DNA from: an uncultured Corynebacterium sp.
GTDB taxonomy: Bacteria > Actinomycetota > Actinomycetes > Mycobacteriales > Mycobacteriaceae
Length of the DNA: 64,000 nt
NCBI GenBank assembly: GCA_943914465.1
Contig: CALUCD010000006.1
Coordinates: forward strand, 67,234 to 131,233
Direction: 5' to 3'
The first letter of the stretch is position 1, and every line of letters begins with the position of its first letter. The notes below the pieces were generated by a model, which was not told the DNA's origin, did not search any database, and saw nothing but the letters and a program-made list of their open reading frames with translations. Positions 41,394-62,237 of this stretch are shown here, piece by piece. A program made the translations under genes and the position numbers.

Positions 41394-42344
41394 ATGGCCC
41401 AACGCCCGAATACCGCCGGGACCTCGTTCACACTGCCACCAGTCATCGCTGCGCCGATGGCGGGTGGGCCCTCCACCCCCAAGCTGGTCAATGCCGTGAA
41501 CTTCGGCTTTTTGGCGTGGGGAACCTGCACACCCACTACCGCCCGTGAAGAGCTTGGTAACACATCTGTCCCATTTGGGATCAACCTGTTCTACCCCCAG
41601 TCCTACCAGCCATCTCAGGCTGACCTCGAGGCCGTGGTACAGCGTCTCGGTCCGGATACGGGGACGAGACTGCCCCAGGTTGATCTCACGGCGGGATTTG
41701 CCGAAAAGTTCACGCTCGCGCTCAATTCCCCAGCCCAGGTCGTCTCTTCGACCTTCGGTTGTTTTTCTCGAGACGAAATCGCCGCCCTCCACGACAGCGG
41801 CAAGCAAGCTTGGATCACGGTGACAACTGCCGAACACGCGGCAGTCGCGTTCAGCCGCGGTGCGGATGCGGTCGTGGTCCAAGGGCCTCGCGCTGGTGGT
41901 CACCGGGGAACCTGGGATCCACGCGACGCACCTGGCACCGATACCCTTGAAGAGCTGCTTGTCAGCATCGAAGGTCGCCGCATCGCCGCTGGGGGTGTGC
42001 GCTGCGCCGGTGACGTCGACACGCTGCTCGCGCTCGGTGCCGAAGCCGTGGCGTGCGGCACCGCGTTTCTGCTTGCTGATGAAGCTGGCACCAGTGAGCG
42101 CAACCGCAGCCTTGTGCGAAGCGATCGACCGAGTGTGTTGAGTAGGGCATTTTCTGGCCGCTGGGCGCGCGGGGTGGAAACTGACTTCACCGTGCGCAAC
42201 CCAGATTTGCCTGCTGTTTACCCGTACTTGCGGCCAATGACGAAGGACAACGACTATTGCCTTGCGGGCGATGAGCGCGCGCAGCTGATGGAAGCATCTG
42301 CCGCTGCTATTGAGCGGGAGCTCACCCCGACGCGGTTTCAGTAA
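41394..42344 (+). CDS. Nitronate monooxygenase (2-nitropropane dioxygenase family, FMN-dependent)
   Basis: VIAAPMAGG...AGGHRG...TIM-barrel NMO pattern. Confidence 0.7.
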
Positions 42345-43174
42345 ACCCGCACCGTGTTTTCAATCGCGCCAAGACCCGCAACCTCAACGCGCACGATGTC
42401 ACCATCCGCAAGGTAGCGCTGCGGGTCGCGCGCGTGGCCAACCCCGTCTGGTGTGCCGGTGGCGATGACGTCACCGGGCGCCAGTGGGTAGAGATGCGAG
42501 ATGAACTCGATGAGTTTTTCGGGGGTAAACACCAAGTCATCGGTGGGGGAGTGTTGGAGTTGTTCACCATTGACGGTGGTTGTGATCGTCGGGCCGGGTC
42601 GCCAGTCTATGTCTAACCAGGGCCCGAAACCGGCTGAATGCTCCAACGATTTGCCCTGGTGCCACTGTTTGGTGCGGTTTTGTAGTTCGCGATTGGTCAA
42701 ATCGTTGATGATTGCGTAGCCCGCAATATAGGCTTCTGCGTCGGCCGCGTGCACATGGCGCGCCTGCTTAGCGACGACCACGGCAACCTCCCCCTCAAAA
42801 TCCAGCGCACCCGCATTGAAGCTGGCAATGGCGGTGTCGTCGAAGGGGCCGATGAGCGCCTCAGGAAACTTGATGAACAGCGTTGGCACGTCGGGGCGGT
42901 CATGACCCATTTCTACAATGTGTTTGGCGTAGTTCAGGCCAACGCAAATGATTTTTCCCGGACGGGGGATCACAGGCGCGAGCTGGTGCGAATTGAACAT
43001 GCGCGGTGTGCTTGCCGTTTCCGCGATCTCACGCCAGTTCGGCTCCGCAAGCAACGCCCCTACATCCGCAAAGCCGGGAATCGGTGTTGCGCGTATCGTC
43101 TGCTCGCTTGCGTCGGTGTCGATGCGGGCAGCAAGCGTGTCAGTGGCGGAGGTGCGGATGGTGGCAAGACGCAT
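42338..43174 (-). CDS. Fumarylacetoacetate hydrolase (FAH) family protein
   Basis: FAH fold motifs ([27 protein letters not shown]). Confidence 0.75.
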
Positions 43175-43229
43175 GCGCCCAGGCTATCGTGCTCACGCTT
43201 TTCGCGTTTGTAGCGGCTAAGTACAGTCC

Positions 43230-44709: not shown

Positions 44710-46614
44710 CTAACGCTGCGGCAACAGCGCCTTGCCAAAGTACGCCTCCAAGCCAGCGCAATCGTCGAGGGGGAGCACCGCACCGACGTACTGGTCTGGC
44801 CGCACAATCACCACTGCGCCGTCGCGGGAGATGCCGCGCGCGTCGAAAATGTCCTCCTCAGTGAGCGCGGACCACACCTTGCCCCAGTACTCCACGCGCA
44901 GAGAACCGGTGCGTGGACGGAACACCTCCGGTGCGTCAGTGACCTCGAAGTCGTGGTAGTGTTGCTGGTAAATAACGTTGATGTCGAACATCGCATCGTC
45001 GTCGACGCCGTCGACAGTGTAGCGGTGGTAGAACGAATCCTCACGCTGGATGTACTCGGCGAGGCGCGCCACCTTCGAGTCTTGCGCTGATGTGTTCGGC
45101 GCGGCGCGATCAGCGAAGACGTAGATGCGGTAGCGGCCATCGGCAGTGTGCATGTGGCCGAGGTGCCGTGGGTTTGCGTCGCAGCGGCGCATCGCGCGAT
45201 ACGACTTGAAACGTCGACCCACCGGGAACCCTGCGGCCAACTCCTGGTGCTCTGTGTCGGCCGTGATCGCGTTATTGGTGTACTCGGTGAGGAATCCTGC
45301 GGCAAACTCCTCGGCGGCGACGTAGTAGTCCTCTACCGCGGTAGGGTTATCTAGTTTTTCGACTGGGGTGGCCATCAGTGTGGACCATTCTTTGTCAAAC
45401 CTGATCAAGTTGGCTGCCGCTGGTTGGCGCTCGGTGTGGTAGGTCAACAGCAGTGACTCCGGTGCCCGGCCGGAGAGCACATGCCCCAGCTTCCACGCGA
45501 TGTTCCACCCGTCTTGCATGGACACGTTCATACCCTGGCCGGCTTTGGCGGAGTGGGTGTGGCAGGCATCGCCGGTGAGGAACACGCGCGGGGTGGGAGA
45601 GTCGGTGTTGTGGTCGGCGTCGTCGAAACCGTCGACAAGTCGGTGTCCGACTTCGTAGATGGAGCTCCACGCGACGTTTTTCACGTCGATGGTGTAGGGC
45701 TCCATGATCTGGTTCGCTTTTTCAATGATTGTCTCCACCGGCGTTTGGCGGATCTTGCTCTTCTCCTCGGGTGAGTCGGCGGCGGACACGACCCCGAGGT
45801 CAACGTACATGCGAGCCAGGTAGCCACCTTCGCGCGGGATGTGCAGGATCGAGCCTGCCTTTGAGTGGATCGAGCACTTGGTGCGCCAATCCGGAAAGTC
45901 GGTGTCTACTACTACGTCCATCACGCCCCAGGCCTGGTTCGCCTGGTCGCCTTCGAGCTTGCGCTGGATGGATTTGCGCACACCGGAGTGGGCCCCGTCG
46001 CAGCCGATGACGTACTTCGCGCGGACGGTGTGTGTGGCACCCTTGTCTTCGCCTGCGGTGCGGGTCAGTTCGACTTTGACCGGATAGTCGTGTCCTTCCT
46101 CCACGGTGAGCGTGTTGAATTCCCAGCCGTAGTTCGGGGTCAGTTGTGTTGGTGAGCGCTGCGCGAAGCGCAGGAAGTAATCCAGCACGCGGGCCTGGTT
46201 CACAATCAGGTGCGGGAATTCCGAAATACCGTGTTCATCATCAATGGGGCGCGCCCCGCGCACGATGTTGTTGGGGTTTTCCGGATCTGGATTCCAAAAA
46301 GACATCTCGGTGATGCGGTAGGCCTCCTCGGTGATCTCTGATGCAAAACCGAATGCTTGGAATGTTTCTACCGAGCGTGACTGGATGCCGTCTGCTTGAC
46401 CGAGTACCAGGCGCCCGTCACGACGCTCGATGATGTGCGTGCGCACCTGCGGGAACATCGAAAGCTGCGCAGCGGCGATCGCACCTGCCGGACCACTGCC
46501 TACGATGAGGACATCCATCTCGTCGGGGAGTTCGTCGGTGCGGTGTATCCAGTTTTCGTTGGGGCTGTGGCAGCGGGGGTCCTGTGAAACGTAGCCGTTG
46601 TGGTGAAACTGCAT
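44710..46614 (-). CDS. FAD-dependent aromatic-ring hydroxylase, PheA/TfdB/MobA (phenol 2-monooxygenase) family with C-terminal thioredoxin-like dimerisation domain
   Basis: FAD-binding GxGxxG (VGSGPAGAIAA), DG..S.VR and GDACH motifs, about 630 aa, typical of group A flavoprotein hydroxylases with a Phe_hydrox_dim domain. Start at MQFHHNGY. Confidence 0.75.
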   Translation of the reverse strand: MQFHHNGYVSQDPRCHSPNENWIHRTDELPDEMDVLIVGSGPAGAIAAAQLSMFPQVRTHIIERRDGRLVLGQADGIQSRSVETFQAFGFASEITEEAYRITEMSFWNPDPENPNNIVRGARPIDDEHGISEFPHLIVNQARVLDYFLRFAQRSPTQLTPNYGWEFNTLTVEEGHDYPVKVELTRTAGEDKGATHTVRAKYVIGCDGAHSGVRKSIQRKLEGDQANQAWGVMDVVVDTDFPDWRTKCSIHSKAGSILHIPREGGYLARMYVDLGVVSAADSPEEKSKIRQTPVETIIEKANQIMEPYTIDVKNVAWSSIYEVGHRLVDGFDDADHNTDSPTPRVFLTGDACHTHSAKAGQGMNVSMQDGWNIAWKLGHVLSGRAPESLLLTYHTERQPAAANLIRFDKEWSTLMATPVEKLDNPTAVEDYYVAAEEFAAGFLTEYTNNAITADTEHQELAAGFPVGRRFKSYRAMRRCDANPRHLGHMHTADGRYRIYVFADRAAPNTSAQDSKVARLAEYIQREDSFYHRYTVDGVDDDAMFDINVIYQQHYHDFEVTDAPEVFRPRTGSLRVEYWGKVWSALTEEDIFDARGISRDGAVVIVRPDQYVGAVLPLDDCAGLEAYFGKALLPQR

Positions 46615-46648
46615 GGTGCTTTCCTTGAAAGTGAGGATGATGAAGGTG

Positions 46649-48004
46649 TTATCGGGTTGCGGTGGGAATGTGCGACGCCGGCTGCCAGATGAAATGGCCG
46701 CTCCTTTGTAAAGCCGTGTGCTCGTGTCCAAGCGGAATGCCGTTTCGCTCTCGTAGGCACACCGCTGCCAGAAGTCCAAGAAGCGACGCGGTCACGAGGT
46801 AGATGGTGATGGACCATGTTGTACCGGTAGACGCGTAGAGCGATGCGGCAATCGTGGGAGCGAAAGCGCCGCCCAGGATCGAACCGAGCGCGTAGGAAAT
46901 TGAAGCGCCAGACGCACGCACTTCCGTCGGGAAAATCTCCGCGAATGTGGCCCCTGTCTGCCCGTAGGTCAGGCCCAGACCCACAGCTAGGAAACAGAGC
47001 GAGAGGTAGATATTTGCCAGCGAGCCAGTGTTCACCAGGGGGAAGAGGGCCACAGCTCCGGCTGCCTGGACGATAAAACCAATGATGTAGGTCATGCGCC
47101 TACCGATGTAATCTGAGATGAATCCAGCGAAGGCAGTGCTAAGTAGCCAAACCACTGCGGAAACAGTCACTGCAAGCAAGATGTCGCCACGATCAAGGGC
47201 AAGACCGTCTTCACGGGTGGTGTAGTTCTGGATGTAGCCACCGGTAGTCATATAACCCACGGTGCCGTTTGCGGCGAACAGCAGCGCAGTAACGATGACC
47301 AGCGGGGTGTAGTTGCTGAACAGTGTGCCGATTGGATTTTTGGTTTCGACCTTCCTGATCTCCGTCATCTCCTCGAACACGGGAGACTCATCTACTCCCT
47401 TGCGGATGTAAAACCCGATCAGGACGAGCACGGCGGAGAAGAGGAACGGCACACGCCAGCCCCACTCCATGAATGCATCACCAGGCGCGATCACATTCAT
47501 GAGCGCTAACGCTGCTGAGGAGACGAGGAGGCCAAGCGGCACACCTGTTTGCGGGCCTGCTCCGTAGAGGCCTCGTTTGCTAGGAGGTGCGTGCTCGACT
47601 GCGAGCAGAACCGCAGAACCCCATTCGCCACCTGCGGAAATGCCTTGCACGATTCGTAGGAGGATCAGCAGGGTGGGTGCCCACACCCCGATCGTTTCGT
47701 AGGTGGGCAAAAGACCAATCAGCGTTGTGGCCGCACCCATTGCGATCAGGGTGATCATCAACGGGATGCGTCGACCGTAGCGGTCAGCAAAGTGGCCGAC
47801 GAGAAAAGCTCCCAAGGGGCGGAACAGGAATGAAAGTCCCATGGTGAGGAACGCGACAATGGTTGCTGCGTCTGATCCGAAGCCGGCAAACATCAGCTGG
47901 TTGAACACCAGACCTGCGGTGGCAGCGTACAGAAAGTAGTCGTACCACTCGATTGCGGTGCCGATGGTGGTAGCAGCTACTACTCTGCCGCGTTCTTGAG
48001 TCAT
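46649..48004 (-). CDS. MFS transporter, metabolite:H+ symporter (MHS) family; putative aromatic acid permease
   Basis: IEWYDYFLYA signature, 12 TM profile, cotranscribed upstream of the hydroxylase. Start may be 48004 or 48040. Confidence 0.75.
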   Translation of the reverse strand: MTQERGRVVAATTIGTAIEWYDYFLYAATAGLVFNQLMFAGFGSDAATIVAFLTMGLSFLFRPLGAFLVGHFADRYGRRIPLMITLIAMGAATTLIGLLPTYETIGVWAPTLLILLRIVQGISAGGEWGSAVLLAVEHAPPSKRGLYGAGPQTGVPLGLLVSSAALALMNVIAPGDAFMEWGWRVPFLFSAVLVLIGFYIRKGVDESPVFEEMTEIRKVETKNPIGTLFSNYTPLVIVTALLFAANGTVGYMTTGGYIQNYTTREDGLALDRGDILLAVTVSAVVWLLSTAFAGFISDYIGRRMTYIIGFIVQAAGAVALFPLVNTGSLANIYLSLCFLAVGLGLTYGQTGATFAEIFPTEVRASGASISYALGSILGGAFAPTIAASLYASTGTTWSITIYLVTASLLGLLAAVCLRERNGIPLGHEHTALQRSGHFIWQPASHIPTATR

Positions 48005-48178
48005 TGCAATATCGGAGGGCGAGTGTGTCTCAGAGGCCACCTGAATCCATCCTTTCGGTTATGTCGTACGTCTCGATATTTGCCTGTATGTGATTTGAAC
48101 CACTTGTGTTGCCAGGAATGATAATATACGATCAGGGGCACATTGCAAGGCCTTCTTTCATCAAAGGAGTTCCATCGA

Positions 48179-49651
48179 ATGGTGCAAGTACCTCCACTAC
48201 CGGTTGTGCCCGGCAAGATTATTGCCGTGCATGTTGCTTTTGAGTCGCGTGCCGCCCAACGTGGCAGGCGACCAAAGCAACCCTCATATTTTTTGAAAGC
48301 AACCAGCTCACTGGCTGGAACGCAGAGCGAAGTAGTTCGTCCTCAGGGCTGCGAGCTCCTCGCTTTCGAGGGTGAAATCGCACTCATTATCGGTAAGGCT
48401 GCACACCGTGTGCCGGTGGAAAAGGCGTGGGATCACGTCGCCTGGGTGACCGCTTCGAACGATCTAGGCATATACGATTACCGCGCGCAGGATAAGGGCT
48501 CCAACACCAGATCGAAATCGCGCGATGGTTATACCCCCATCGGGCCTGAACTGATCGATGCCCGCGCTGTCGGCCCAGACGCATTCCGGATCCGCACCTG
48601 GGTAAACAATGAGCTCGTGCAGGAGGGCACCACCTCCGAAGATGACCTCATCTTCTCGCTGCCGCAGTTCGTTGCGGACCTATCTCAGCACATGACGCTT
48701 GCAGAGGGCGACATTATTCTCACTGGCACCCCGGCTGGATCCACCGTTATCGTTCCGGGTGATGTGGTTGAAGTTGAGGTCGACGCACCGCACGCCGAGG
48801 GCAGCCCAACATCGGGACGACTGATAACCACCGTCGTCGAGGGGCCGGGCGACTTTGATGCATTGATAGGCATGCTGCCCTCGATTGACGATAAGCAGCG
48901 CGAGGATGCCTACGGCAGCCGCGCTGCAGCTGGCCTTCCTGAGAACCCAAACGCAATCAGTGAGCAGCTGCGAGAAAAGCTCATGCAGGCCCCCACCGCG
49001 GGCCTGTCCGCAGAGCTCCGCAACCGCGGGCTCAACCAAGTCGTCATCGAGGGTGTGTTCCCGCAGGACCCAGCCACAAAGATGGTGGGACCAGCACGTA
49101 CGCTGCGCTTTGTACCTGAACGCGAAGACCTGTTCAAGTCACACGGTGGCGGCTACAACGCGCAAAAACGGGCCTTTGACAGCCTGCGGGAGGGTGAAGT
49201 GCTGGTCATCGAGGCACGGCGTGGCGCCGAATCTGGCACCCTGGGTGACATTCTCGCCCTGCGCGCCCGTCACTTGGGGGCAGCTGGTGTGGTCACCGAC
49301 GGCTGTGTGCGTGACTACGCTGCGGTCAAAGAGATCGGGCTGCCTGTGTTTACGCAGGGGCCGCACCCCGCAGTCTTGGGCCGACGTCACGTACCGTGGG
49401 ATGCCGATATTGCCGTGGCATGCGGCAACGCCACGGTAGTGCCGGGTGACATCATCGTCGGCGACTCGGATGGTGTGGTTGTCATTCCCCGTGACATCGC
49501 TGAAGAGGTCGCGGATAAGGCACTGGCCAAAGAACGTGAGGACGAGTGGGTCGCCGAGCAGATCGCGGCGGGCGCCAAGCTTGACGGCATGTTCCCGCCC
49601 ACGGGAGAAAACCGCACGGCCTATGAACGCTACGCTGGGGGCGAGCAGTGA
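48179..49651 (+). CDS. Fusion protein: N-terminal FAH-family domain (HpaG-like HHDD isomerase/OPET decarboxylase type) + C-terminal RraA-like (class II aldolase/decarboxylase-like) domain
   Basis: aa about 1-230 are FAH-like (ALIIGKAAH..., GDIILTGTPAG); aa about 270-490 match the RraA/HMG-CPH aldolase family (GDILALRARHLGAAGVVTDGCVRD, GDIIVGDSDGVVVIP). ATG with AAAGGAG 8 nt upstream. First gene of the hpa operon. Confidence 0.7.
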   Translation: MVQVPPLPVVPGKIIAVHVAFESRAAQRGRRPKQPSYFLKATSSLAGTQSEVVRPQGCELLAFEGEIALIIGKAAHRVPVEKAWDHVAWVTASNDLGIYDYRAQDKGSNTRSKSRDGYTPIGPELIDARAVGPDAFRIRTWVNNELVQEGTTSEDDLIFSLPQFVADLSQHMTLAEGDIILTGTPAGSTVIVPGDVVEVEVDAPHAEGSPTSGRLITTVVEGPGDFDALIGMLPSIDDKQREDAYGSRAAAGLPENPNAISEQLREKLMQAPTAGLSAELRNRGLNQVVIEGVFPQDPATKMVGPARTLRFVPEREDLFKSHGGGYNAQKRAFDSLREGEVLVIEARRGAESGTLGDILALRARHLGAAGVVTDGCVRDYAAVKEIGLPVFTQGPHPAVLGRRHVPWDADIAVACGNATVVPGDIIVGDSDGVVVIPRDIAEEVADKALAKEREDEWVAEQIAAGAKLDGMFPPTGENRTAYERYAGGEQ

Positions 49652-50337
49652 CTGTGGTTGAGACGCATACTCCGCCTGCGAAATCCAAGGCGGAGTTGTC
49701 CTACGACTGGATTCGCGAGCGCATCCGCGTGCGCGATTTCGAACCCGGTTATCGCCTTGTGCTTTCGCAAATCGCCGATGAGCTTGACGTGAGCGTGGTG
49801 CCGGTGCGCGAGGCAATCCGCCAGCTCGAGGCGGAGGGGCTAGTCACCTACGAGCACAACGTCGGCGCTCGCGTCTCCGAGCTCAACCGCCGCTCCTATT
49901 ACGAACTTATGGAGTCGGTAGCGGTGCTCGAGGCGGCAGCTACCGCGCTTTCGGCGCCCTTGCTTGAAGACGTTGCCCTGCACCGCGCCCACGCCCTCAA
50001 CGAAGACATGCGCGTGCTTCTTAGTGACTTCGACCCAGTGGAGTTCACCAGGCTCAACCAGGAGTTTCACCAGACACTGTTCTCGGCGTGTCCGAATCAG
50101 CGTCTGGTGTCGCTCGTGCACCGGGAGTGGGAAGAACTCGACCGCTACCGGGTGTCGACATTTCGCTACGTTCCCGAGCGTGCGGAGGCGTCGGTTGCCG
50201 AACATGACCAGCTCGTATCCCTCATCGTCGCCAACGCGTCACCGCACGTCATCGAGGACATAGCCCGCAACCATCGACTGAAGACCAAAGACGCCTATAA
50301 ACACAGTTCTCACCGTTTGACCTCAAAGGAGAAATAG
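49648..50337 (+). CDS. GntR family (FadR/FCD subfamily) transcriptional regulator of the hpa operon
   Basis: N-terminal wHTH (LVLSQIADELDVSVVPVREAIRQLEAEGLV) and a C-terminal FCD domain. GTG start overlapping the upstream stop. Confidence 0.75.
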   Translation: MTVVETHTPPAKSKAELSYDWIRERIRVRDFEPGYRLVLSQIADELDVSVVPVREAIRQLEAEGLVTYEHNVGARVSELNRRSYYELMESVAVLEAAATALSAPLLEDVALHRAHALNEDMRVLLSDFDPVEFTRLNQEFHQTLFSACPNQRLVSLVHREWEELDRYRVSTFRYVPERAEASVAEHDQLVSLIVANASPHVIEDIARNHRLKTKDAYKHSSHRLTSKEK

Positions 50338-50342
50338 ACACC

Positions 50343-51842
50343 ATGGCCAAGCCGAACAACCTGCCCGATAAGATCTTGCACTACATCAACGGGGAATTCG
50401 TTTCCTCGATCGACGGTGACGAATTCGATGTCATCGACCCAGTGACCAACCAGCCATACATCAAAGCGGCATCCGGAAAGCCTGAGGACATTGATGCTGC
50501 GGTCGCGGCCGCGAAGGCTGCGTTTGCGGACGGAGAGTGGTCCAAGGCGTTGCCGCGCCAGCGTGCTCGAGTGCTGCACAAAATCGCAGACATTGTGGAA
50601 ACCCGAAACGACACACTGGCCGAATGGGAATCGTTCGACTCCGGCCTGCCAATCTCACAGGCGAAAGGCCAAGCAGCGCGCGCAGCAGAGAATTTCCGCT
50701 TCTTCGCGGATCTCATCGTCGCCCAAACCGATGACGCTTTCAAGGTGCCGGGCCGCCAAATCAACTACGTGAACCGGAAACCGATCGGCGTGGCCGGTCT
50801 CATCACCCCGTGGAACACCCCGTTCATGCTTGAGTCGTGGAAGTTGGCGCCGGCCATTGCCACTGGTAACTGCGTTGTGCTCAAGCCAGCTGAGTTCACC
50901 CCACTGTCCGCGCAGCTGTGGGCCGGCATCTTCGAAGAGGCTGGCCTGCCTAAAGGGGTGTTCAACCTGGTCAACGGCTTCGGCGAAGAAGGTTTTGCGG
51001 GTGACCCGCTGGTGAAACACCCAGACGTGCCGCTGATCTCTTTTACTGGCGAGTCCCGTACCGGCCAGATCATCTTCGCCAACGCGGCCCCATACCTCAA
51101 AGGATTATCCATGGAGCTCGGCGGCAAATCCCCGGCAGTGGTGTTCGAAGACGCCGACTTGGACATCGCTATTGACGCCACCATTTTCGGCGTGTTTTCG
51201 CTCAACGGTGAGCGCTGCACCGCCGGCTCTCGCATCCTGGTGCAGCGCTCAATCTATGACGAATTCGTCGAGCGCTACGCTGCCCAAGCCTCCCGAGTGA
51301 AAGTGGGATTGCCGTCTGACCCAACCACCGAAGTCGGTGCGCTGGTCCACCCGGAGCACTACGACAAGGTGATGAGCTATATCGAAATTGGTAAGCAGGA
51401 AGCTCGCCTGGTGGCTGGCGGCGGACGCCCGGAGGGGTTCGACGAGGGAAACTTCGTTGCTCCCACCGTCTTTGTTGACGTAGCACCCGATGCCCGTATC
51501 TTCCAGGAAGAGATCTTCGGCCCGGTTGTGGCTATCACACCGTTTGATACCGAAGAAGAAGCGCTGGAGCTGGCAAACAACACGAGCTACGGGCTGGCTG
51601 CCTACATCTGGACATCCGACCTGCAGCGCGCCCACAACTTCGCCCAGAACGTCGAAGCCGGCATGGTGTGGATGAACTCGAACAACGTACGCGACCTGCG
51701 CACCCCCTTCGGCGGTGTGAAGGCCTCCGGCCTCGGCCACGAGGGTGGCTACCGCTCCATCGATTTCTACACGGACCAGCAAGCCGTGCACGTCAACCTG
51801 GGGGAGGTACACAACCCAGTCTTCGGCAAACAGCAGCCGTAG
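50343..51842 (+). CDS. hpaE: 5-carboxymethyl-2-hydroxymuconate semialdehyde dehydrogenase
   Basis: ALDH superfamily (ELGGKSP, catalytic Cys region GERCTAGSR) in the hpa operon context. AAAGGAG RBS. Confidence 0.8.
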   Translation: MAKPNNLPDKILHYINGEFVSSIDGDEFDVIDPVTNQPYIKAASGKPEDIDAAVAAAKAAFADGEWSKALPRQRARVLHKIADIVETRNDTLAEWESFDSGLPISQAKGQAARAAENFRFFADLIVAQTDDAFKVPGRQINYVNRKPIGVAGLITPWNTPFMLESWKLAPAIATGNCVVLKPAEFTPLSAQLWAGIFEEAGLPKGVFNLVNGFGEEGFAGDPLVKHPDVPLISFTGESRTGQIIFANAAPYLKGLSMELGGKSPAVVFEDADLDIAIDATIFGVFSLNGERCTAGSRILVQRSIYDEFVERYAAQASRVKVGLPSDPTTEVGALVHPEHYDKVMSYIEIGKQEARLVAGGGRPEGFDEGNFVAPTVFVDVAPDARIFQEEIFGPVVAITPFDTEEEALELANNTSYGLAAYIWTSDLQRAHNFAQNVEAGMVWMNSNNVRDLRTPFGGVKASGLGHEGGYRSIDFYTDQQAVHVNLGEVHNPVFGKQQP

Positions 51843-51910: not shown

Positions 51911-52993
51911 ATGACCGCCCAAGCCCCCGATATCCTGCGCTGCGCCTACATGGAGATCATTGTTACCGACCTTGCCGAGTCCCGCCGCTTCTACGTGGAC
52001 ACTCTCGGCTTGGTGGTCACCTACGAAGACGATGAAAGCATCTACCTGCGCACATTCGAAGAATTCATCCACCACAATCTCGTTCTTCGCCAAGGCGACG
52101 AGGCTGCGGTTGCCGCGTTCTCCTACCGCGTACGTGCGCCGGAAGACCTGGATCTTGCCGTGGCGTTCTACCAAGAGCGCGGCTGCCGCGTCGAGCGCAA
52201 CCCGCACGGTTTTGTCCGCGGCATCGGCGACTCCGTGCGGGTTATGGACCCACTTGGTTTCCCATACGAATTCTTCCACGACGTGGAGCACGTCGAGCGC
52301 CTTGCCTGGGCTTATGACGCACACATCCCAGGTGCGCTGGTACGCCTAGACCACTTCAACCAGATCACTCCGGATGTTCCCTCCGCGGTGGACTACATGG
52401 AAGATCTCGGCTTCCGGATCACGGAGGACATCCGTGACGCGGAAGGTACCGTCTACGCCGCATGGATGCGTCGCAAAGCAACTGTGCACGATACTGCAAT
52501 GACCGGCGGCGACGGCCCGCGCATGCACCACATTGCGTTTGCTACGCACGAAAAGCACAACATCATTGCGATCTGTGACAAACTCGGCGCGCTGCGCGAG
52601 TCTGATCGCATCGAGCGTGGCCCCGGGCGCCACGGCGTGTCGAATGCGTACTACCTCTACCTGCGCGACCCGGACGGCCACCGGGTGGAAATCTACACCC
52701 AGGATTACTACACCGGCGACCCAGACAACCCGGTAGTGACCTGGGATGTGCACGACAACCAGCGCCGCGACTGGTGGGGCACACCGGTCGTGCCGTCGTG
52801 GTACACCGACGGTTCACGGGTTCTCGACCTCGACGGCAAGGTCGTGGAACTGACCACACGCACCGACAAGTCCGAAATGGAAGAAACGATCGGCGCCGAC
52901 GGCTTTTCCTACACCCGACCGGAGGATGCAGATGAAAAAGGCGACATGCCGGAGTGGAAACAAGGCGAATACAAACTCGGACACAGTCTTTAA
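51911..52993 (+). CDS. hpaD: 3,4-dihydroxyphenylacetate (homoprotocatechuate) 2,3-dioxygenase, type I extradiol dioxygenase
   Basis: About 360 aa two-module vicinal-oxygen-chelate fold, operon context. ATG at 51911 with AAGGAG upstream; the ORF-track 5' extension is rejected. Confidence 0.75.
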   Translation: MTAQAPDILRCAYMEIIVTDLAESRRFYVDTLGLVVTYEDDESIYLRTFEEFIHHNLVLRQGDEAAVAAFSYRVRAPEDLDLAVAFYQERGCRVERNPHGFVRGIGDSVRVMDPLGFPYEFFHDVEHVERLAWAYDAHIPGALVRLDHFNQITPDVPSAVDYMEDLGFRITEDIRDAEGTVYAAWMRRKATVHDTAMTGGDGPRMHHIAFATHEKHNIIAICDKLGALRESDRIERGPGRHGVSNAYYLYLRDPDGHRVEIYTQDYYTGDPDNPVVTWDVHDNQRRDWWGTPVVPSWYTDGSRVLDLDGKVVELTTRTDKSEMEETIGADGFSYTRPEDADEKGDMPEWKQGEYKLGHSL

Positions 52994-53017: not shown

Positions 53018-53803
53018 ATGTTGGACAAGGACACGATTCGGTCAATCGCTGACGAGCTCGCCGCGGCAGAAGCCAACCGCTCAATGGTTCCGCTGCTCAC
53101 CGCCCGCTATTCCGCGATGGAGGTCGAAGACAGCTACGCGGTGCAGGCTGAATGGGTGCGCCGCGGGCAGGAGGCTGGCCGCCGGCTTGTAGGCCACAAA
53201 ATCGGCCTGACATCTAAAGTGATGCAGGAAGCCACCGGGATCACCGAGCCCGATTACGGTGCGATATTCGCAGACATGGTGTATGAAAACGGTGCGCACA
53301 TCGAGTGCAACAAGTTTTCTAATGTCCGCATCGAAGTAGAACTTGCGTTCGTTTTAGACAAAGACCTCAGTGGACCTGACACCACCATTTTCGACGTCCT
53401 TGAGGCCACGAAGTACGTGGTGCCGGCACTAGAAATCCTGTCGTCGCGCATTGAGATGCAAGGGCGCACCATCGTTGACACGATCGCCGACAACGCCGCG
53501 ATGGGCGCGATGGTCTACGGGGGCAACCCGGTGGCCCCGGATGCTGTTGATCTGCGCTGGTGCTCCGCGTTGCTGTATCGCAACGAAGCGATCGAAGATA
53601 CCGGTGTTGCCGCTGCCGTATTAAACCACCCAGCAATGGGCGTCGCGTGGCTGGCGAACAAACTGCACCAACATGGCACGGTGTTGCAGGCGGGAGAAAT
53701 TGTGCTCGCCGGCTCATTTACCAAGCCGATGTGGGTTGAGCCAGGCGACACGGTGCACGCAGACTACAACGAACTGGGAGCAATTACATGCCGTTTCATT
53801 TAA
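53018..53803 (+). CDS. hpaH: 2-oxo-hept-4-ene-1,7-dioate hydratase
   Basis: HpaH/MhpD hydratase-decarboxylase family (261 aa) between hpaD and hpaI. GAGGAGGGG RBS. Confidence 0.75.
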   Translation: MLDKDTIRSIADELAAAEANRSMVPLLTARYSAMEVEDSYAVQAEWVRRGQEAGRRLVGHKIGLTSKVMQEATGITEPDYGAIFADMVYENGAHIECNKFSNVRIEVELAFVLDKDLSGPDTTIFDVLEATKYVVPALEILSSRIEMQGRTIVDTIADNAAMGAMVYGGNPVAPDAVDLRWCSALLYRNEAIEDTGVAAAVLNHPAMGVAWLANKLHQHGTVLQAGEIVLAGSFTKPMWVEPGDTVHADYNELGAITCRFI

Positions 53804-54582
53804 CGTTGCCGGCGACGTTGCCGCAGCGAATCGTTGCTCAGCAACCGCTTGTGGGTGCTTGGGTATCGTCAGGTTCTGATACCGCCGCCGAGATCATCGC
53901 CACAGCAGGCTTTGATTGGGTGCTTATCGACGCAGAGCATTCCCCATATGGGTTGGAAACCGTTACCTCGCTGCTGCGGGCAACCAACGGCACTGCGGCA
54001 ACCCCAGTCGTGCGGCTGCCACAGGGCGATACCGCGCTGATCAAACAGTACCTGGATCTAGGCGCGCAAAACCTCATGATTCCAATGGTGCACACCGTCG
54101 AAGATGCGCAACGCATCGTCGCGGCGATGCACTATCCGCCGCGCGGTGTACGGGGTGTGGGCTCTGCTCTCGCGCGCTCTTCACGGTGGAATGGGGTTAA
54201 GAACTACCTGGCAAATGCATCCGACACGATTAGTCTCACCGTGCAGATCGAATCTGCACAAGCAGTGGAAAACGCTGCCGAAATCGCCGCTCTTGACGGT
54301 GTCGATGCTGTGTTCGTGGGACCTGCCGACCTTGCGGCATCCATGGGTCTGCTCGGACAACCAGCACACCCAGACGTCGTGGCAGCTGTGGAGCACACAT
54401 TTCGCGCCGTGCTTGACGCAGGCAAACCAGTCGGAGTCAACACATTTGACACCACACAGGCGAAGAAATACCTCGAAGCGGGCGCTTCATTCGTGTGTGT
54501 TGGCGCCGATGTGCAACTTCTTGCAAACTCAGCGCGCACCTTGGCGGCAACGTTTGATGACCATCGCAATGGTGCCAACTAA
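53788..54582 (+). CDS. hpaI: 4-hydroxy-2-oxoheptanedioate (2,4-dihydroxyhept-2-ene-1,7-dioate) aldolase
   Basis: HpcH/HpaI class II aldolase family (LIDAEHSPY, VRLP, PMV). Overlaps the hpaH stop. Confidence 0.8.
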   Translation: MPFHLTLPATLPQRIVAQQPLVGAWVSSGSDTAAEIIATAGFDWVLIDAEHSPYGLETVTSLLRATNGTAATPVVRLPQGDTALIKQYLDLGAQNLMIPMVHTVEDAQRIVAAMHYPPRGVRGVGSALARSSRWNGVKNYLANASDTISLTVQIESAQAVENAAEIAALDGVDAVFVGPADLAASMGLLGQPAHPDVVAAVEHTFRAVLDAGKPVGVNTFDTTQAKKYLEAGASFVCVGADVQLLANSARTLAATFDDHRNGAN

Positions 54583-54688: not shown

Positions 54689-56014
54689 ATGCACAATTCT
54701 TCTCCAGCAGGCACTGCGACGCCGACAGCGGCGGCGGAGCGGATGACCCCAGGGTCGCGCAAGGCACTGTTCGCAGCGGTGACCGGAACTGTCATCGAGT
54801 GGTATGACTACGCGTTGTACGGTGCTGCCGCTGGCGTAGTCATCGGCCCGTTATTCTTCCACGGCACCGAAGCTGGGACCACAATCGCGGCGTTTGCCAC
54901 CTTCGCCGTCGGGTTTGTTGCCAGGCCGCTCGGGGGTCTGTTGGTTGGTTACCTCGGTGACCGGTACGGGCGTCGGCTGGCGATGCTGCTCACCATGTTG
55001 ATGATGGCGGTGGCCACCGTCGGCATTGGACTGTTGCCCACAGCACAGTCCATCGGCGTGCTAGCACCGGTTCTTCTGGTGGCCCTCCGGTTATTGCAAG
55101 GCATGGGCGCAGGTGCGGAACTCGCTGGCGCAATGACCATCGTGGCCGAGTTCGCACCTTCCTCGAAACGCGGGCTATTGACATCTTTTGTACTGGCCAC
55201 GCCACCGCTTGGCATCTCGTTAGCTACTTTGGCTTTTCTTGGGGTGTCTGCACTCGGCGATCAGGCCCTCATGTCATGGGCGTGGCGGGTGCCATTTTTG
55301 GCGTCGGCGGTACTGTTCATTTTGGCCATCTGGGTGAGGCGGCAACTCGAAGAGACCCCGGAGTACCTGCTTGCACAGCAGCGCGTGCAGGGGCGCGGGG
55401 AGCGCGACCGCGTTCCCGTTTCAACGTTGCTCACCAATCACGCACGGGGTTTGTTTTCTGGATTCCTGGCGATGACGGGCCACAATGCAGTCAACTACGC
55501 ACTTGCCGTGTTCGCCATCTCGCTCATGGCCTCCGAGGCAGTTGGGTTGACCCGCAGCGCGGCACTTACTGCGGTGACATTGGGCTCACTAGTGGGGGTA
55601 ATCACCACACCAGTCGGCGGATTCTTCAGCGACCGCCTCGGATCCGGACGTACCGTGGCGCTTGGCTCAGCTGCCGGAGTGGTCACCGCGTACCCAATTT
55701 TGCTCATGCTCACCTCCGGCAACGCATTTATCGGAGGTCTCGGGGTTGCGCTTGGTTACGCACTGGTGATCACGTTCACCGCGGGCGGACAGGGAGCATA
55801 CCTTGCCAGCCTGTTCCCGCCGCGCGAACGCATGAGCGGGATTGCCCTTGCGCGCGAGTGCAACGGTGCGCTTGTCGCGGGTTTTACCCCGTTGATGCTG
55901 ACCTGGCTGCTTGAAATCGGCGGCGGCATTATACTGCCGGCAGTCTACCTAGCCATGTGCTGTGCGCTGTCTATTCTCGCGGTCGTTATCAGCCCTACCA
56001 GCCAGCGCTACTAA
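54689..56014 (+). CDS. MFS transporter, metabolite:H+ symporter (MHS) family; candidate 4-hydroxyphenylacetate/aromatic acid permease
   Basis: IEWYDYALYG signature, 12 TM profile, immediately downstream of hpaI. Confidence 0.75.
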   Translation: MHNSSPAGTATPTAAAERMTPGSRKALFAAVTGTVIEWYDYALYGAAAGVVIGPLFFHGTEAGTTIAAFATFAVGFVARPLGGLLVGYLGDRYGRRLAMLLTMLMMAVATVGIGLLPTAQSIGVLAPVLLVALRLLQGMGAGAELAGAMTIVAEFAPSSKRGLLTSFVLATPPLGISLATLAFLGVSALGDQALMSWAWRVPFLASAVLFILAIWVRRQLEETPEYLLAQQRVQGRGERDRVPVSTLLTNHARGLFSGFLAMTGHNAVNYALAVFAISLMASEAVGLTRSAALTAVTLGSLVGVITTPVGGFFSDRLGSGRTVALGSAAGVVTAYPILLMLTSGNAFIGGLGVALGYALVITFTAGGQGAYLASLFPPRERMSGIALARECNGALVAGFTPLMLTWLLEIGGGIILPAVYLAMCCALSILAVVISPTSQRY

Positions 56015-57310: not shown

Positions 57311-57323
57311 CGACGTCAACGCC

Positions 57324-58697: not shown

Positions 58698-59038
58698 GGG
58701 ATCCTCCTAAAGCCGGTAATGGTGTCCGGATGAGCGCGATGTGGGAACTAGCATACGTGCTATAACTCACGGATATCCCAGTTCCCGGCATTTATTGACC
58801 AATCGTTCAGTATTTCTATCGTGCTTAGACGTTTTGCTCGGCGGTACCCGGGCACTCTCGGCGTGTTGGGGTGGGTGTCGTGTCGAGTCTGGAGATCTTT
58901 GCGAGTGGGGTAGTTCCGGGTGTAAAACAGACCGATTATCCGTCGGGGTGATTGTCATTACATGCCAGAATTAGTTGTTATGTAGATCTCAAGTCACTAT
59001 CTTGTCTATGACGCAGCCACGACTACAAGGAGTACCGC

Positions 59039-60463: not shown

Positions 60464-60467
60464 GGCG

Positions 60468-62165: not shown

Positions 62166-62237
62166 AGCTCCTCCCCGCCGTGTTGTGCCACAGCATATTC
62201 TCCCATGCGCTTTGCCGCGATCACACCGCAGCGTCGG

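What the first reader, a model, noticed from the sequence alone, without database searches (positions are those of the whole stretch)
48179..49651. FAH-RraA domain fusion as first gene of a homoprotocatechuate meta-cleavage operon that lacks hpaF
The operon reads fusion gene - GntR regulator - hpaE - hpaD - hpaH - hpaI. There is no separate CHM isomerase (HpaF), and only one FAH domain instead of the two-domain HpaG (decarboxylase + isomerase) of E. coli. Instead the single FAH domain is fused to an RraA-like domain (the family of 4-hydroxy-4-methyl-2-oxoglutarate aldolase/oxaloacetate decarboxylase). The RraA-like half may supply the missing isomerase or decarboxylase step, or a tautomerase-like activity. 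This would be an undescribed solution for the CHM to OPET to HHDD to OHED section of the pathway.
Basis: partly seen in the sequence, partly recalled or inferred. Interest (0 to 1): 0.55.

Follow-up and report, generated by a model that had tools for sequence, protein, structure and literature searches.

The report
FAH–RraA fusion "HpaG" of Actinobacteria
The first gene of this hydroxyphenylacetate-degradation operon really is a fusion of a decarboxylase-type FAH domain with an RraA-like domain; the fusion is widespread in Actinobacteria and already catalogued, but what its RraA-like half does has never been tested.

Summary
ORF 48179-49651 (+) encodes 490 aa: a FAH domain, a flexible linker and an RraA-like domain. 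It heads a tight operon: fusion, GntR, hpaE, hpaD, hpaH, hpaI. No CHM isomerase (HpaF) gene lies in the 64-kb window.

It is not a new architecture. It matches NCBIfam NF009399/PRK12764 end to end. The same gene order, hpaGLEDHI, was published for Corynebacterium aurimucosum in 2010.

I found the fusion in 59 loci from more than 25 actinobacterial genera. It sits next to hpaE and hpaD in 56 of them, and none has an HpaF within 10 kb. Eight clusters with two FAH domains all have HpaF.

The FAH half resembles the metal-binding C-terminal (decarboxylase) domain of E. coli HpcE, and the metal triad is kept. The RraA-like half keeps all four catalytic or metal residues of HMG/CHA aldolase, invariant in 23 fusion proteins.

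Best reading: an actinobacterial HpaG in which the RraA-like domain replaces the metal-less second FAH domain and perhaps HpaF, probably as a metal-dependent keto-enol tautomerase. That role is inferred, not shown. A Chloroflexota hpa operon also lacks both genes and has no RraA domain, so the missing steps may not need replacing.

Interest is moderate.

The parts
48179..49651 (+). Fusion gene, the actinobacterial 'hpaG'; 490 aa
   Evidence: ORF with a ribosome-binding site. Full-length match to NCBIfam NF009399/PRK12764: 786 bits against a cut-off of 444. All 120 best homologues carry both Pfam domains.
48200..48844 (+). FAH domain (aa 8-222), resembling the C-terminal decarboxylase domain of HpcE; metal triad E64/E66/D95 and K113
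   Evidence: PF01557, E 3e-49. Best PDB match is the C-terminal domain of 1gtt/1i7o (aa 215-414), E 3.7e-55. Identity is 40% to the C-domain and 33% to the N-domain. The triad aligns with HpcE E276/E278/D307, while N-type domains lack both Glu. These residues are invariant in 23 fusions.
48845..48964 (+). Interdomain linker (aa 223-262), poorly conserved and variable in length
   Evidence: Mean identity 59%, against 74-77% for the domains. Insertions of up to about 60 aa occur in other genera. pLDDT is about 48-57.
48965..49639 (+). RraA-like domain plus C-terminal helices (aa 263-487), with putative active-site residues D357, R378, D379 and D455
   Evidence: PF03737, E 1e-33. NF006093/PRK08245 subfamily: 230 bits against a cut-off of 208. 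Best PDB match is 5x15, E 8e-39. The alignment to HMG/CHA aldolase 3noj places D102/R123/D124/E199 on D357/R378/D379/D455. All four are invariant in alignment A1.
49648..50337 (+). GntR/FCD transcriptional regulator ('hpaL'), translationally coupled to the fusion gene
   Evidence: PF00392 plus PF07729. GTGA start/stop overlap. Adjacent to the fusion in 55 of 59 loci.
50343..51842 (+). hpaE, CHMS dehydrogenase
   Evidence: TIGR02299, 652 bits against a cut-off of 638. 47% identical to E. coli HpaE.
51911..52993 (+). hpaD, homoprotocatechuate 2,3-dioxygenase, VOC (type I extradiol) class
   Evidence: TIGR02295, 415 bits against a cut-off of 321. ATG at 51911 with an AAGGAG ribosome-binding site.
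53018..53803 (+). hpaH, 2-oxo-hept-4-ene-1,7-dioate hydratase
   Evidence: TIGR02312, 357 bits against a cut-off of 351.5. 52% identical to E. coli HpaH.
53788..54582 (+). hpaI-like HpcH-family class II aldolase
   Evidence: PF03328, E 2e-50. TIGR02311, 305 bits, below the cut-off of 369. 46% identical to E. coli HpaI.
54689..56014 (+). MFS metabolite/H+ symporter downstream in the same orientation; membership of the operon is likely but not shown
   Evidence: PF00083/PF07690. TIGR00883, 347 bits, below cut-off.
46649..48040 (-). Divergently transcribed MFS transporter, conserved next to the fusion in about half of the loci
   Evidence: 32 of 59 loci.
44710..46614 (-). Single-component flavoprotein monooxygenase resembling phenol 2-monooxygenase; candidate 3- or 4-hydroxyphenylacetate hydroxylase that makes homoprotocatechuate. 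The maximal ORF runs to 46779; the true start is probably near 46614.
   Evidence: NF006144/PRK08294, 948 bits against a cut-off of 560. PF01494 plus PF07976. Present in 30 of 59 fusion loci. The substrate is inferred.
48041..48178 (.). Divergent intergenic region, presumably holding promoters and the GntR operator; no element identified
   Evidence: No inverted or direct repeat found. Promoter-like matches are not above the shuffled expectation.

Best explanation
The gene encodes the actinobacterial counterpart of HpaG/HpcE. It is the enzyme that carries the ring-fission tri-acid (CHM/OPET) to the di-acid (HHDD/OHED) in homoprotocatechuate meta-cleavage.

The N-terminal FAH domain resembles the C-terminal domain of HpcE and has an intact Glu-Glu-Asp metal site. 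It is the OPET decarboxylase. This is strongly inferred from homology and gene position.

The RraA-like domain takes the place of the metal-less N-terminal 'HHDD isomerase' FAH domain of HpcE. The stand-alone CHM isomerase HpaF is also gone from these clusters.

The RraA-like domain retains the full Mg2+-binding and enolate-stabilising site of class II pyruvate aldolases of the RraA fold. That site is built to hold a 2-oxo-acid head group on a metal and to add or remove a proton at C3. I therefore propose it is a metal-dependent keto-enol tautomerase on the 2-hydroxy-dienoate intermediates.
- Most simply, it would convert HHDD to 2-oxo-hept-4-ene-1,7-dioate, the named substrate of HpaH.
- It might also speed CHM/OPET interconversion.

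The flexible tether would keep the tautomerase next to the decarboxylase at 1:1 stoichiometry.

Shown: domain identities, conserved catalytic residues, operon membership, and absence of HpaF and of a second FAH domain across the phylum. Inferred: which reaction each half catalyses.
For: 1. Position and synteny. The fusion sits where hpaG sits in E. coli.
2. Linkage. Of 59 fusion loci from more than 25 actinobacterial genera, 56 have hpaE and hpaD adjacent. 39 have hpaH and 38 have an HpcH-type hpaI; 8 others have a DapA-type HpaI.
3. HpaF. None of the 59 fusion loci or the window has a CHMI hit, even with an 8-sequence HMM, filters off and E<=10. All 8 clusters with two FAH domains have one.
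4. FAH half. It is closest to the HpcE C-domain, and the triad E64/E66/D95 is invariant, whereas N-type domains lack it. The literature assigns the C-domain as the decarboxylase and finds no clear catalytic role for the N-type partner (PMC12718150).
5. RraA half. D357/R378/D379/D455 align with D102/R123/D124/E199 of HMG/CHA aldolase and are invariant. In that enzyme Arg-123 stabilises the pyruvate enolate, Asp-124 and Glu-199 bind the metal, and the enzyme catalyses C3 proton exchange and oxaloacetate decarboxylation (PMC5065237).
6. Constraint. The RraA core is as conserved as the FAH domain (77% against 74% mean identity), while the linker is not (59%).
7. Context of relatives. The closest stand-alone relatives (5x15 type) sit in metabolic operons, which fits enzymes of this subfamily.
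Against: - There is no biochemical or genetic data for any member of this family in the literature I could search.
- All fusion loci belong to one phylum. The anticorrelation with HpaF may therefore reflect one ancestral event rather than many independent ones.
- A Chloroflexota hpa operon (L072) has one FAH gene and no hpaF, N-type FAH or RraA domain. CHMI is only an accelerator in vitro. Nothing may need replacing.
- A single FAH domain can presumably homodimerise, so the RraA half is not needed as a structural partner either.
- CHM to OPET requires protonation at C5. That is remote from the C3 position handled by known RraA-fold enzymes.
- The catalytic residues are also kept in RraA proteins described as RNase E regulators (3c8o), so their conservation does not prove catalysis.
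- The AlphaFold model gives no confident interdomain geometry (pTM 0.51).
- I could not search whole genomes for a distant hpaF. The 2010 paper claims one, cauri_0890.
Confidence: 0.5

Rival explanations
1. The roles are reversed or shared. The RraA-like half is the OPET decarboxylase, acting on a vinylogous beta-keto acid in the way the family's known oxaloacetate decarboxylase activity works. The FAH half acts as the isomerase.
For: RraA-fold HMG/CHA aldolase decarboxylates oxaloacetate at about 2 s-1 using the same residues that are conserved here. Functional assignment of the HpcE domains rests on structure alone and is called ambiguous.
Against: The FAH half is the type that carries the metal triad and matches the subunit shown to decarboxylate in A. 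baumannii (OPETD is 69% identical to the HpcE C-domain). Every hpa cluster sampled keeps a C-type FAH, whether or not an RraA domain is present.
Confidence: 0.15
2. The RraA-like half is not catalytic in this pathway. It serves as an oligomerisation or activation scaffold (RraA-fold proteins form trimers and hexamers). Alternatively it is a regulatory module, for example binding RNase E or sensing a 2-oxo acid.
For: In A. baumannii the partner subunit HHDDI stimulates the decarboxylase by forming a complex, without a demonstrable isomerase effect on the hydratase step. The closest solved structure, 5x15, is 100% identical to the Streptomyces lividans protein named 'ribonuclease activity regulator RraA'. 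Reviews describe RraAS1 and RraAS2 as RNase ES inhibitors.
Against: All four metal and enolate residues are invariant across fusions that have diverged to about 50-65% identity. A pure scaffold would not need them. The flexible linker of variable length argues against a fixed activating interface. The stand-alone relatives lie in catabolic operons.
Confidence: 0.15
3. The RraA-like half is a class II aldolase or oxaloacetate decarboxylase acting at the end of the pathway or on a side product. It might cleave 4-hydroxy-2-oxoheptanedioate, backing up or replacing HpaI.
For: Aldol cleavage of 4-hydroxy-2-oxo acids is the only well-proven chemistry of the fold. Five full-flank fusion loci (L028, L038, L039, L040, L042) show neither type of HpaI within 10 kb.
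Against: 46 of the 59 loci already carry an aldolase: an HpcH-type HpaI in 38 and a DapA-type in 8. The LigK/ProA equivalog model scores 79 bits against a cut-off of 304.5. Fusion to the decarboxylase rather than to the hydratase is hard to explain under this reading.
Confidence: 0.1
4. The steps that seem to be missing are supplied from elsewhere in the genome, as the 2010 C. aurimucosum paper asserted for hpaF (cauri_0890). The RraA-like half is then an evolutionary passenger unrelated to those steps.
For: PMC2830990 states that the hpaF function is encoded elsewhere. Only 64 kb of this genome and +/-10 kb of the others could be examined.
Against: The paper gives no evidence for that assignment. 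Stand-alone FAH proteins are routinely mislabelled as 'isomerase'; PDB entries 4pfz and 4dbf are examples. The stand-alone FAH of this window is a core Corynebacterium protein also present in C. glutamicum. A passenger domain would not stay 77% identical with an invariant active site across a phylum.
Confidence: 0.1

Closest known systems
E. coli HpaG/HpcE (PDB 1gtt, 1i7o), the bifunctional OPET decarboxylase / HHDD isomerase
   Same: It is the first gene of the hpa meta-cleavage operon, and the order of hpaE, hpaD, hpaH and hpaI is the same. The FAH domain is 40% identical to the HpcE C-terminal domain, with the Glu-Glu-Asp metal triad conserved.
   Different: There is one FAH domain, not two. 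The metal-less N-terminal FAH domain is replaced by an RraA-like domain, and that domain is placed at the C-terminus rather than the N-terminus. The protein scores far below the HpaG models: NF011750 145 bits against 811, and TIGR02303 151 against 276. No hpaF accompanies it.
A. baumannii OPETD-HHDDI complex plus CHMI (PMC12718150, J Biol Chem 2025)
   Same: It covers the same section of the pathway. A metal-bearing C-type FAH decarboxylase works with a physically associated partner protein.
   Different: In A. baumannii the partner is a separate N-type FAH protein and CHMI is a third protein. Here the partner is covalently fused, belongs to an unrelated fold (RraA) and has a full metal site. 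No CHMI is present.
HMG/CHA aldolase / oxaloacetate decarboxylase (LigK, GalC, ProA; PDB 3noj), the catalytic branch of the RraA fold
   Same: It has the PF03737 fold. D102, R123, D124 and E199 are all conserved as D357, R378, D379 and D455. It also acts in aromatic meta-cleavage catabolism.
   Different: The relationship is distant (E 3.5e-13 for the RraA-like half alone; TIGR02798 79 bits against 304.5). It belongs to the PRK08245 subfamily, which has extra C-terminal helices. It is fused to FAH. The pathway already has its own aldolase.
Streptomyces coelicolor/lividans RraA-like protein of PDB 5x15 (NCBIfam PRK08245 subfamily)
   Same: It is the closest solved structure to the RraA-like half (E 8e-39, full length including the C-terminal helices).
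   Different: It is a stand-alone protein of about 262-272 aa named an RNase E regulator. It lies in a sugar-acid-type operon rather than an hpa cluster. I recall 5x15 as RraAS2, but the tools identify it only as 'putative transferase' / S. lividans RraA.
Corynebacterium aurimucosum ATCC 700975 hpaGLEDHI-gabD2 cluster (PMC2830990, 2010)
   Same: The gene order is identical (hpaG, the GntR-type hpaL, hpaE, hpaD, hpaH, hpaI), and hpaF is missing from the cluster.
   Different: The paper treats HpaG as an ordinary OPET decarboxylase. It does not mention the RraA-like half and assigns hpaF to a distant gene without evidence. Its cluster is linked to amine oxidase genes rather than to the flavoprotein hydroxylase seen here.

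Membership tests
NCBIfam NF009399 / PRK12764 (FAH-RraA fusion family, named only 'FAH family protein') | Full-length match to the 501-position model above the curated cut-off of 444 bits | tested here: met
   786 bits; protein residues 6-488 on model positions 16-496.
HpaG/HpcE bifunctional isomerase/decarboxylase (NF011750, TIGR02303 plus TIGR02305) | Two tandem FAH domains (N-type and C-type), scoring above the equivalog cut-offs | tested here: not met
   There is one FAH domain only. Scores: NF011750 145 bits against 811; TIGR02303 151 against 276.4; TIGR02305 103 against 228.65.
HpaG/HpcE bifunctional isomerase/decarboxylase | Glu-Glu-Asp metal triad of the decarboxylase (C-terminal) domain | tested here: met
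   E64/E66/D95 align with HpcE E276/E278/D307 and are invariant in 23 fusions.
HpaG/HpcE bifunctional isomerase/decarboxylase | Encoded within an hpa meta-cleavage cluster with hpaE and hpaD | tested here: met
   True in the window and in 56 of 59 fusion loci.
HpaG/HpcE bifunctional isomerase/decarboxylase | OPET decarboxylase and HHDD isomerase activities | not testable with these tools
   This needs enzymology with enzymatically generated CHM/OPET.
RraA / HMG-CHA aldolase superfamily (Pfam PF03737) | Pfam domain match above the gathering score | tested here: met
   117 bits against 24.5, covering model positions 1-152 of 152.
HMG/CHA aldolase (LigK/ProA/GalC; TIGR02798, NF006731) | Equivalog-level score | tested here: not met
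   TIGR02798 79 bits against 304.5; NF006731 85 against 179.
HMG/CHA aldolase (catalytic RraA-fold enzymes) | Catalytic Arg-123, metal ligands Asp-124 and Glu-199, and Asp-102 | tested here: met
   R378, D379, D455 and D357 by alignment to 3noj, all invariant. The roles of these residues come from PMC5065237.
RraA, regulator of RNase E (NF006875) | Equivalog-level score; small stand-alone protein of about 160 aa | tested here: not met
   54 bits against 136. Here it is a domain of a 490-aa enzyme inside a catabolic operon.
NCBIfam NF006093 / PRK08245 (RraA-like subfamily with C-terminal helices; function unknown) | Score above the cut-off of 208 bits | tested here: met
   230 bits; residues 260-485. 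PDB 5x15 is of this type.
CHM isomerase HpaF/HpcD (tautomerase superfamily) | A CHMI-family gene in or near the cluster | tested here: not met
   No hit in the window or in 59 fusion loci. Present in 8 of 8 two-FAH clusters. Whole genomes could not be searched.

The most novel reading that the evidence does not exclude
The RraA-like domain is a true metal-dependent dienol/2-oxo-acid tautomerase. That would be a catalytic activity not yet described for the RraA fold. In one fused polypeptide it would replace both the tautomerase-superfamily enzyme HpaF and the 'HHDD isomerase' FAH domain throughout the Actinomycetota. This would be a phylum-wide non-orthologous displacement in a textbook aromatic pathway. 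It would also imply that stand-alone PRK08245-type 'RraA' proteins, including the Streptomyces RNase E 'regulators', are primarily enzymes.
Probability: 0.3. Interest if true: 0.6.

Novelty: new variant of a known kind. Interest (0 to 1): 0.45.

Why it matters
The homoprotocatechuate meta-cleavage route is a classic pathway, yet its middle section is still unclear. A 2025 study states that it remains ambiguous how the two HpaG domains function.

An entire phylum carries a differently built enzyme for this section. That phylum includes genera I recall as classical homoprotocatechuate dioxygenase models (Arthrobacter, Brevibacterium) and human-associated Corynebacterium and Rothia. The enzyme has one metal-bearing FAH domain tethered to an RraA-fold domain with an intact active site, and no CHM isomerase accompanies it.

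Characterising it would show which of the isomerisation steps really need a catalyst. It could add a new reaction to the RraA fold, whose members are often annotated as RNase regulators or methyltransferases. It would also correct annotation of thousands of genes now labelled 'FAH family protein' or 'bifunctional isomerase/decarboxylase'.

If the RraA half proves dispensable, the finding is only an annotation curiosity.

Tried and rejected
- **Stand-alone FAH gene at 42341-43183 (-) as the missing second HpaG domain or 'HpaF'.** Rejected. It lies next to pth. Its best PDB match is 6j57 (E 7e-102). It is conserved across Corynebacterium, including C. glutamicum, and is absent from the neighbourhood of the fusion in other genera.
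- **Hidden small genes or a conserved unknown ORF in the clusters that could act as a tautomerase.** Clustering of unassigned ORFs from 60 loci gave only a TPP enzyme, an IclR regulator, a DapA-type aldolase and alternative-frame shadow ORFs. The shadow-ORF clusters were judged from their positions and were not all scanned with Pfam. A 4-OT-type (PF01361) profile was not run.
- **Operator or promoter in the divergent intergenic region.** No repeats were found, and promoter-like matches were at the shuffled expectation.
- **Split versions (adjacent FAH and RraA genes).** None was seen among 21 FAH-only loci. The stand-alone 5x15-type genes are not next to FAH genes.
- **Literature on the fusion.** Three full-text searches found no paper linking RraA and FAH in this pathway. 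The supplement of the 2010 paper was not available, so cauri_0890 could not be checked.
- **AlphaFold2 model (mean pLDDT 79, pTM 0.51).** The domains fold as expected, but their relative orientation is not reliable, so no channelling argument was made. No fold search was run because the sequence matches to solved structures were already unambiguous.
- **My recalled 'GX20RDX2E/D' motif for catalytic RraA proteins.** I dropped it because I could not verify it. Residue-by-residue alignment to 3noj was used instead.
Full report
**Observation**

The ORF at 48179-49651 (+) starts at an ATG preceded by AAAGGAG and ends at TGA 49649-49651. Its 490-aa product carries two Pfam domains: PF01557 FAA_hydrolase (aa 18-219, E 3e-49) and PF03737 RraA-like (aa 273-435, E 1e-33).

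- GntR/FCD regulator, 49648-50337. Its GTG overlaps the fusion's stop as GTGA.
- HpaE, 50343-51842.
- HpaD of the VOC type, 51911-52993.
- HpaH, 53018-53803.
- HpcH-family aldolase, 53788-54582.
- An MFS transporter and an FMN-dependent 2-hydroxy-acid dehydrogenase further downstream.

Intergenic gaps are under 110 bp, so the operon hides no further gene.

Upstream and divergent lie an MFS transporter and a phenol-2-monooxygenase-like flavoprotein. E. coli has hpaG-hpaE-hpaD-hpaF-hpaH-hpaI. The fusion therefore sits exactly at the hpaG position, and hpaF is the gene missing between hpaD and hpaH.

No CHMI homologue was found in the 64-kb window. tblastn with E. coli HpaF gave a best E of 0.44. 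An HMM built from eight CHMIs gave nothing at E<=10 with filters off.

One correction is needed. A stand-alone FAH gene lies 5 kb upstream at 42341-43183 (-), next to pth. It is a core Corynebacterium protein found in many species, including C. glutamicum, and is not linked to the fusion elsewhere.

**Is it new?**

No, not as an architecture. The protein matches NCBIfam NF009399/PRK12764 over its whole length, with 786 bits against a cut-off of 444. The best 120 database homologues (64-100% identity) all carry both domains. They come from Corynebacterium, Kocuria, Rothia, Auritidibacter and Nocardia. They are annotated 'FAH family protein' or 'homoprotocatechuate catabolism bifunctional isomerase/decarboxylase'.

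The 2010 genome paper on C. aurimucosum describes the same cluster as hpaGLEDHI plus gabD2. It notes that hpaF is not in the cluster and asserts, without evidence, that cauri_0890 supplies that function. It does not mention the RraA-like half (PMC2830990).

Three full-text searches found no study of the fusion itself.

**Comparative genomics**

One scan of species-representative genomes returned 59 loci with the full-length fusion, at 48-72% identity. They come from more than 25 actinobacterial genera: Corynebacterium, Rothia, Brevibacterium, Microbacterium, Cellulomonas, Rhodococcus, Arthrobacter, Leifsonia, Amycolatopsis, Streptomyces, Actinomadura, an Acidimicrobiales MAG and others. The scan also returned 21 FAH-only loci.

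Profile searches of all six-frame ORFs gave the following counts for the 59 fusion loci:

| Gene found within 10 kb of the fusion | Fusion loci (of 59) |
|---|---|
| GntR regulator | 55 |
| hpaE | 56 |
| VOC-type hpaD | 56 |
| hpaH | 39 |
| HpcH-type hpaI | 38 |
| DapA-type aldolase (TIGR02313-like), in loci without hpaH and HpcH-type hpaI | 8 |
| HpaF (CHMI) | 0 |

The zero for HpaF held with the sensitive HMM as well. By contrast, E. coli and all seven sampled clusters with two FAH genes or domains (Proteobacteria and Bacillota) carry HpaF next to them. No other conserved unknown gene that could stand in for HpaF emerged from clustering the unassigned ORFs.

There are two caveats:
- All fusion loci belong to one phylum, so the anticorrelation may trace to a single ancestral event.
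- A Dictyobacter (Chloroflexota) operon, hpaD-hpaB-dapA-type aldolase-FAH-hpaE, has one C-type FAH and none of hpaF, N-type FAH, hpaH or RraA. Absence of these genes from an hpa cluster is therefore not unique to the fusion clusters.

**The two halves**

*FAH half.* Its best match in the PDB is the C-terminal domain of HpcE (E 3.7e-55). It is 40% identical to that domain and 33% identical to the N-terminal one. The C-domain metal triad E276/E278/D307 aligns with E64/E66/D95, which are invariant in 23 fusions. N-type domains have Gly/Thr or Gly/Ala at the two Glu positions.

A 2025 study of the A. baumannii enzymes (PMC12718150) reports the following:
- The C-type protein is the OPET decarboxylase.
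- The N-type 'HHDD isomerase' boosts decarboxylation by forming a complex, but does not accelerate the hydratase step.
- CHM isomerase accelerates the process but is not essential.

*RraA-like half.* It belongs to the PRK08245 subfamily (230 bits against 208). Its best structure match is 5x15 (E 8e-39). The sequence of 5x15 is 100% identical to the S. lividans protein annotated as RraA.

Aligned to HMG/CHA aldolase (3noj), residues D102, R123, D124 and E199 correspond to D357, R378, D379 and D455. All four are invariant in the fusion alignment. In the aldolase, Arg-123 stabilises the pyruvate enolate, and Asp-124 and Glu-199 bind Mg2+. The enzyme also catalyses pyruvate C3 proton exchange and oxaloacetate decarboxylation (PMC5065237).

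Mean identity across the 23 fusions is 74% for the FAH domain, 77% for the RraA core and 59% for the linker. The linker also varies in length by up to about 60 residues. AlphaFold2 folds both domains, leaves the linker disordered and gives no reliable interdomain orientation (pTM 0.51).

Stand-alone 5x15-type genes in Streptomyces and Microbacterium sit in a conserved operon. It encodes an ABC sugar transporter, DUF8034, an aldo-keto reductase, an SDR (Streptomyces only) and an amidohydrolase_2. That is an enzyme-like context.

**Mechanism**

*Firmly inferred.* The protein is the HpaG equivalent of Actinomycetota, and its FAH half is the metal-dependent OPET decarboxylase.

*Proposed.* The RraA-like half replaces the metal-less N-type FAH domain, and HpaF has been lost from these clusters. 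Its conserved site is designed to chelate a 2-oxo-acid head group and move a proton at C3. The most economical role is therefore ketonisation of the dienol product HHDD to 2-oxo-hept-4-ene-1,7-dioate, the named substrate of HpaH. It might also help CHM/OPET tautomerisation. The tether would ensure proximity and 1:1 stoichiometry.

*Weaknesses.*
- CHM to OPET needs protonation at C5, not C3.
- The same residues are retained in RraA proteins described as RNase E regulators.
- Some hpa operons manage without any such partner.

*Rivals, all untested.*
- The RraA half is itself the decarboxylase.
- It is a scaffold or regulator.
- It is an accessory aldolase.
- The missing steps are encoded elsewhere in the genome.

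**Verdict**

The 'missing hpaF and second FAH domain' pattern is real and phylum-wide, and the RraA half looks catalytically competent. However, the architecture is already catalogued, the cluster was published in 2010, and the necessity argument is weaker than stated.

In the pathway sense this is an uncharacterised variant of a known enzyme. It is directly testable with standard enzymology, and interest is moderate.

Noticed in passing
L082/L083 6001-6819 (Streptomyces); L084 6001-6792 (Microbacterium): The stand-alone RraA-like protein of PDB 5x15 is named an RNase E regulator in Streptomyces. It lies in a conserved operon with a GntR/FCD regulator, an ABC sugar transporter, DUF8034, an aldo-keto reductase and an amidohydrolase_2, plus an SDR in Streptomyces. 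This context suggests a sugar-acid catabolic enzyme, such as a 2-keto-3-deoxy-acid aldolase, rather than only a ribonuclease regulator.
   Followed up: partly
L034, L035, L041, L045, L048, L052, L055, L057, between the fusion/GntR genes and hpaE (e.g. L055 12092-13141): Eight fusion loci carry a DapA-like aldolase instead of hpaH plus an HpcH-type hpaI. They come from Streptomyces, Streptosporangiaceae, Cryobacterium, Galbitalea, Acidimicrobiales and uncultured Actinomycetota. Two of them, L055 and L045, were scored against TIGR02313 'HpaI-NOT-DapA' and gave 354 and 345 bits (cut-off 397). No hydratase was seen within 10 kb.
   Followed up: partly
L072 6310-12155 (Dictyobacter sp., Chloroflexota): This is a compact hpa operon: hpaD (VOC type), hpaB, a DapA-type aldolase, a single C-type FAH and hpaE. 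It has no hpaF, N-type FAH, hpaH or RraA domain. A one-FAH pathway therefore exists outside the Actinobacteria.
   Followed up: partly
window 44710-46779 (-) and 46649-48040 (-): A single-component flavoprotein of the phenol-2-monooxygenase/MobA type (PRK08294, 948 bits) and an MFS transporter are transcribed divergently from the operon. They are conserved next to the fusion in about half of the loci. The flavoprotein is a candidate 3- or 4-hydroxyphenylacetate hydroxylase, unlike the two-component HpaBC of E. coli. The substrate was not tested.
   Followed up: partly
window 42341-43183 (-): This stand-alone FAH-family gene lies next to pth. Its best PDB match is 6j57 (E 7e-102), and orthologues occur throughout Corynebacterium, including C. 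glutamicum. It is variously annotated as ureidoglycolate lyase, acylpyruvate hydrolase or HHDD isomerase. It may be the kind of gene that older annotations call the 'isomerase' of the hpa pathway.
   Followed up: partly
window 56051-63998: The region looks like an aromatic-acid catabolic island. It holds an FMN-dependent 2-hydroxy-acid dehydrogenase (56051-57310), an amidase (57327-58706, -), an aldehyde dehydrogenase resembling phenylacetaldehyde dehydrogenase (59012-60460), an indolepyruvate-decarboxylase-like TPP enzyme (60471-62237, -) and PaaZ, which is cut by the window end (62241-63998, -). A TPP enzyme clustering with this one (blastp) occurs in 18 of the fusion loci, but the one checked (L058) best matches acetolactate-synthase-type models, not indolepyruvate decarboxylase.
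   Followed up: partly
L060 9821-11466 and 6715-7643 (Leucobacter coleopterorum); L044 67-1899: The FAH part of the fusion is split over two reading frames in L060 and L044. In L060 hpaI is also split. These may be pseudogenes in a decaying cluster, or sequencing errors.
   Followed up: no
L043 (5.4-kb contig labelled Stenotrophomonas maltophilia P13): This is the only fusion locus not labelled as Actinomycetota. It is a short contig carrying the fusion and a GntR gene, 52% identical to the window protein. It is probably actinobacterial contamination of the assembly.
   Followed up: no
L039 9046-9963 (-) and L042 9084-9914 (-): In a Streptosporangiaceae MAG and in an uncultured actinomycete, an extra stand-alone FAH gene lies divergently next to the fusion. 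It is 42-43% identical to the window's stand-alone FAH. Its role is unknown.
   Followed up: no
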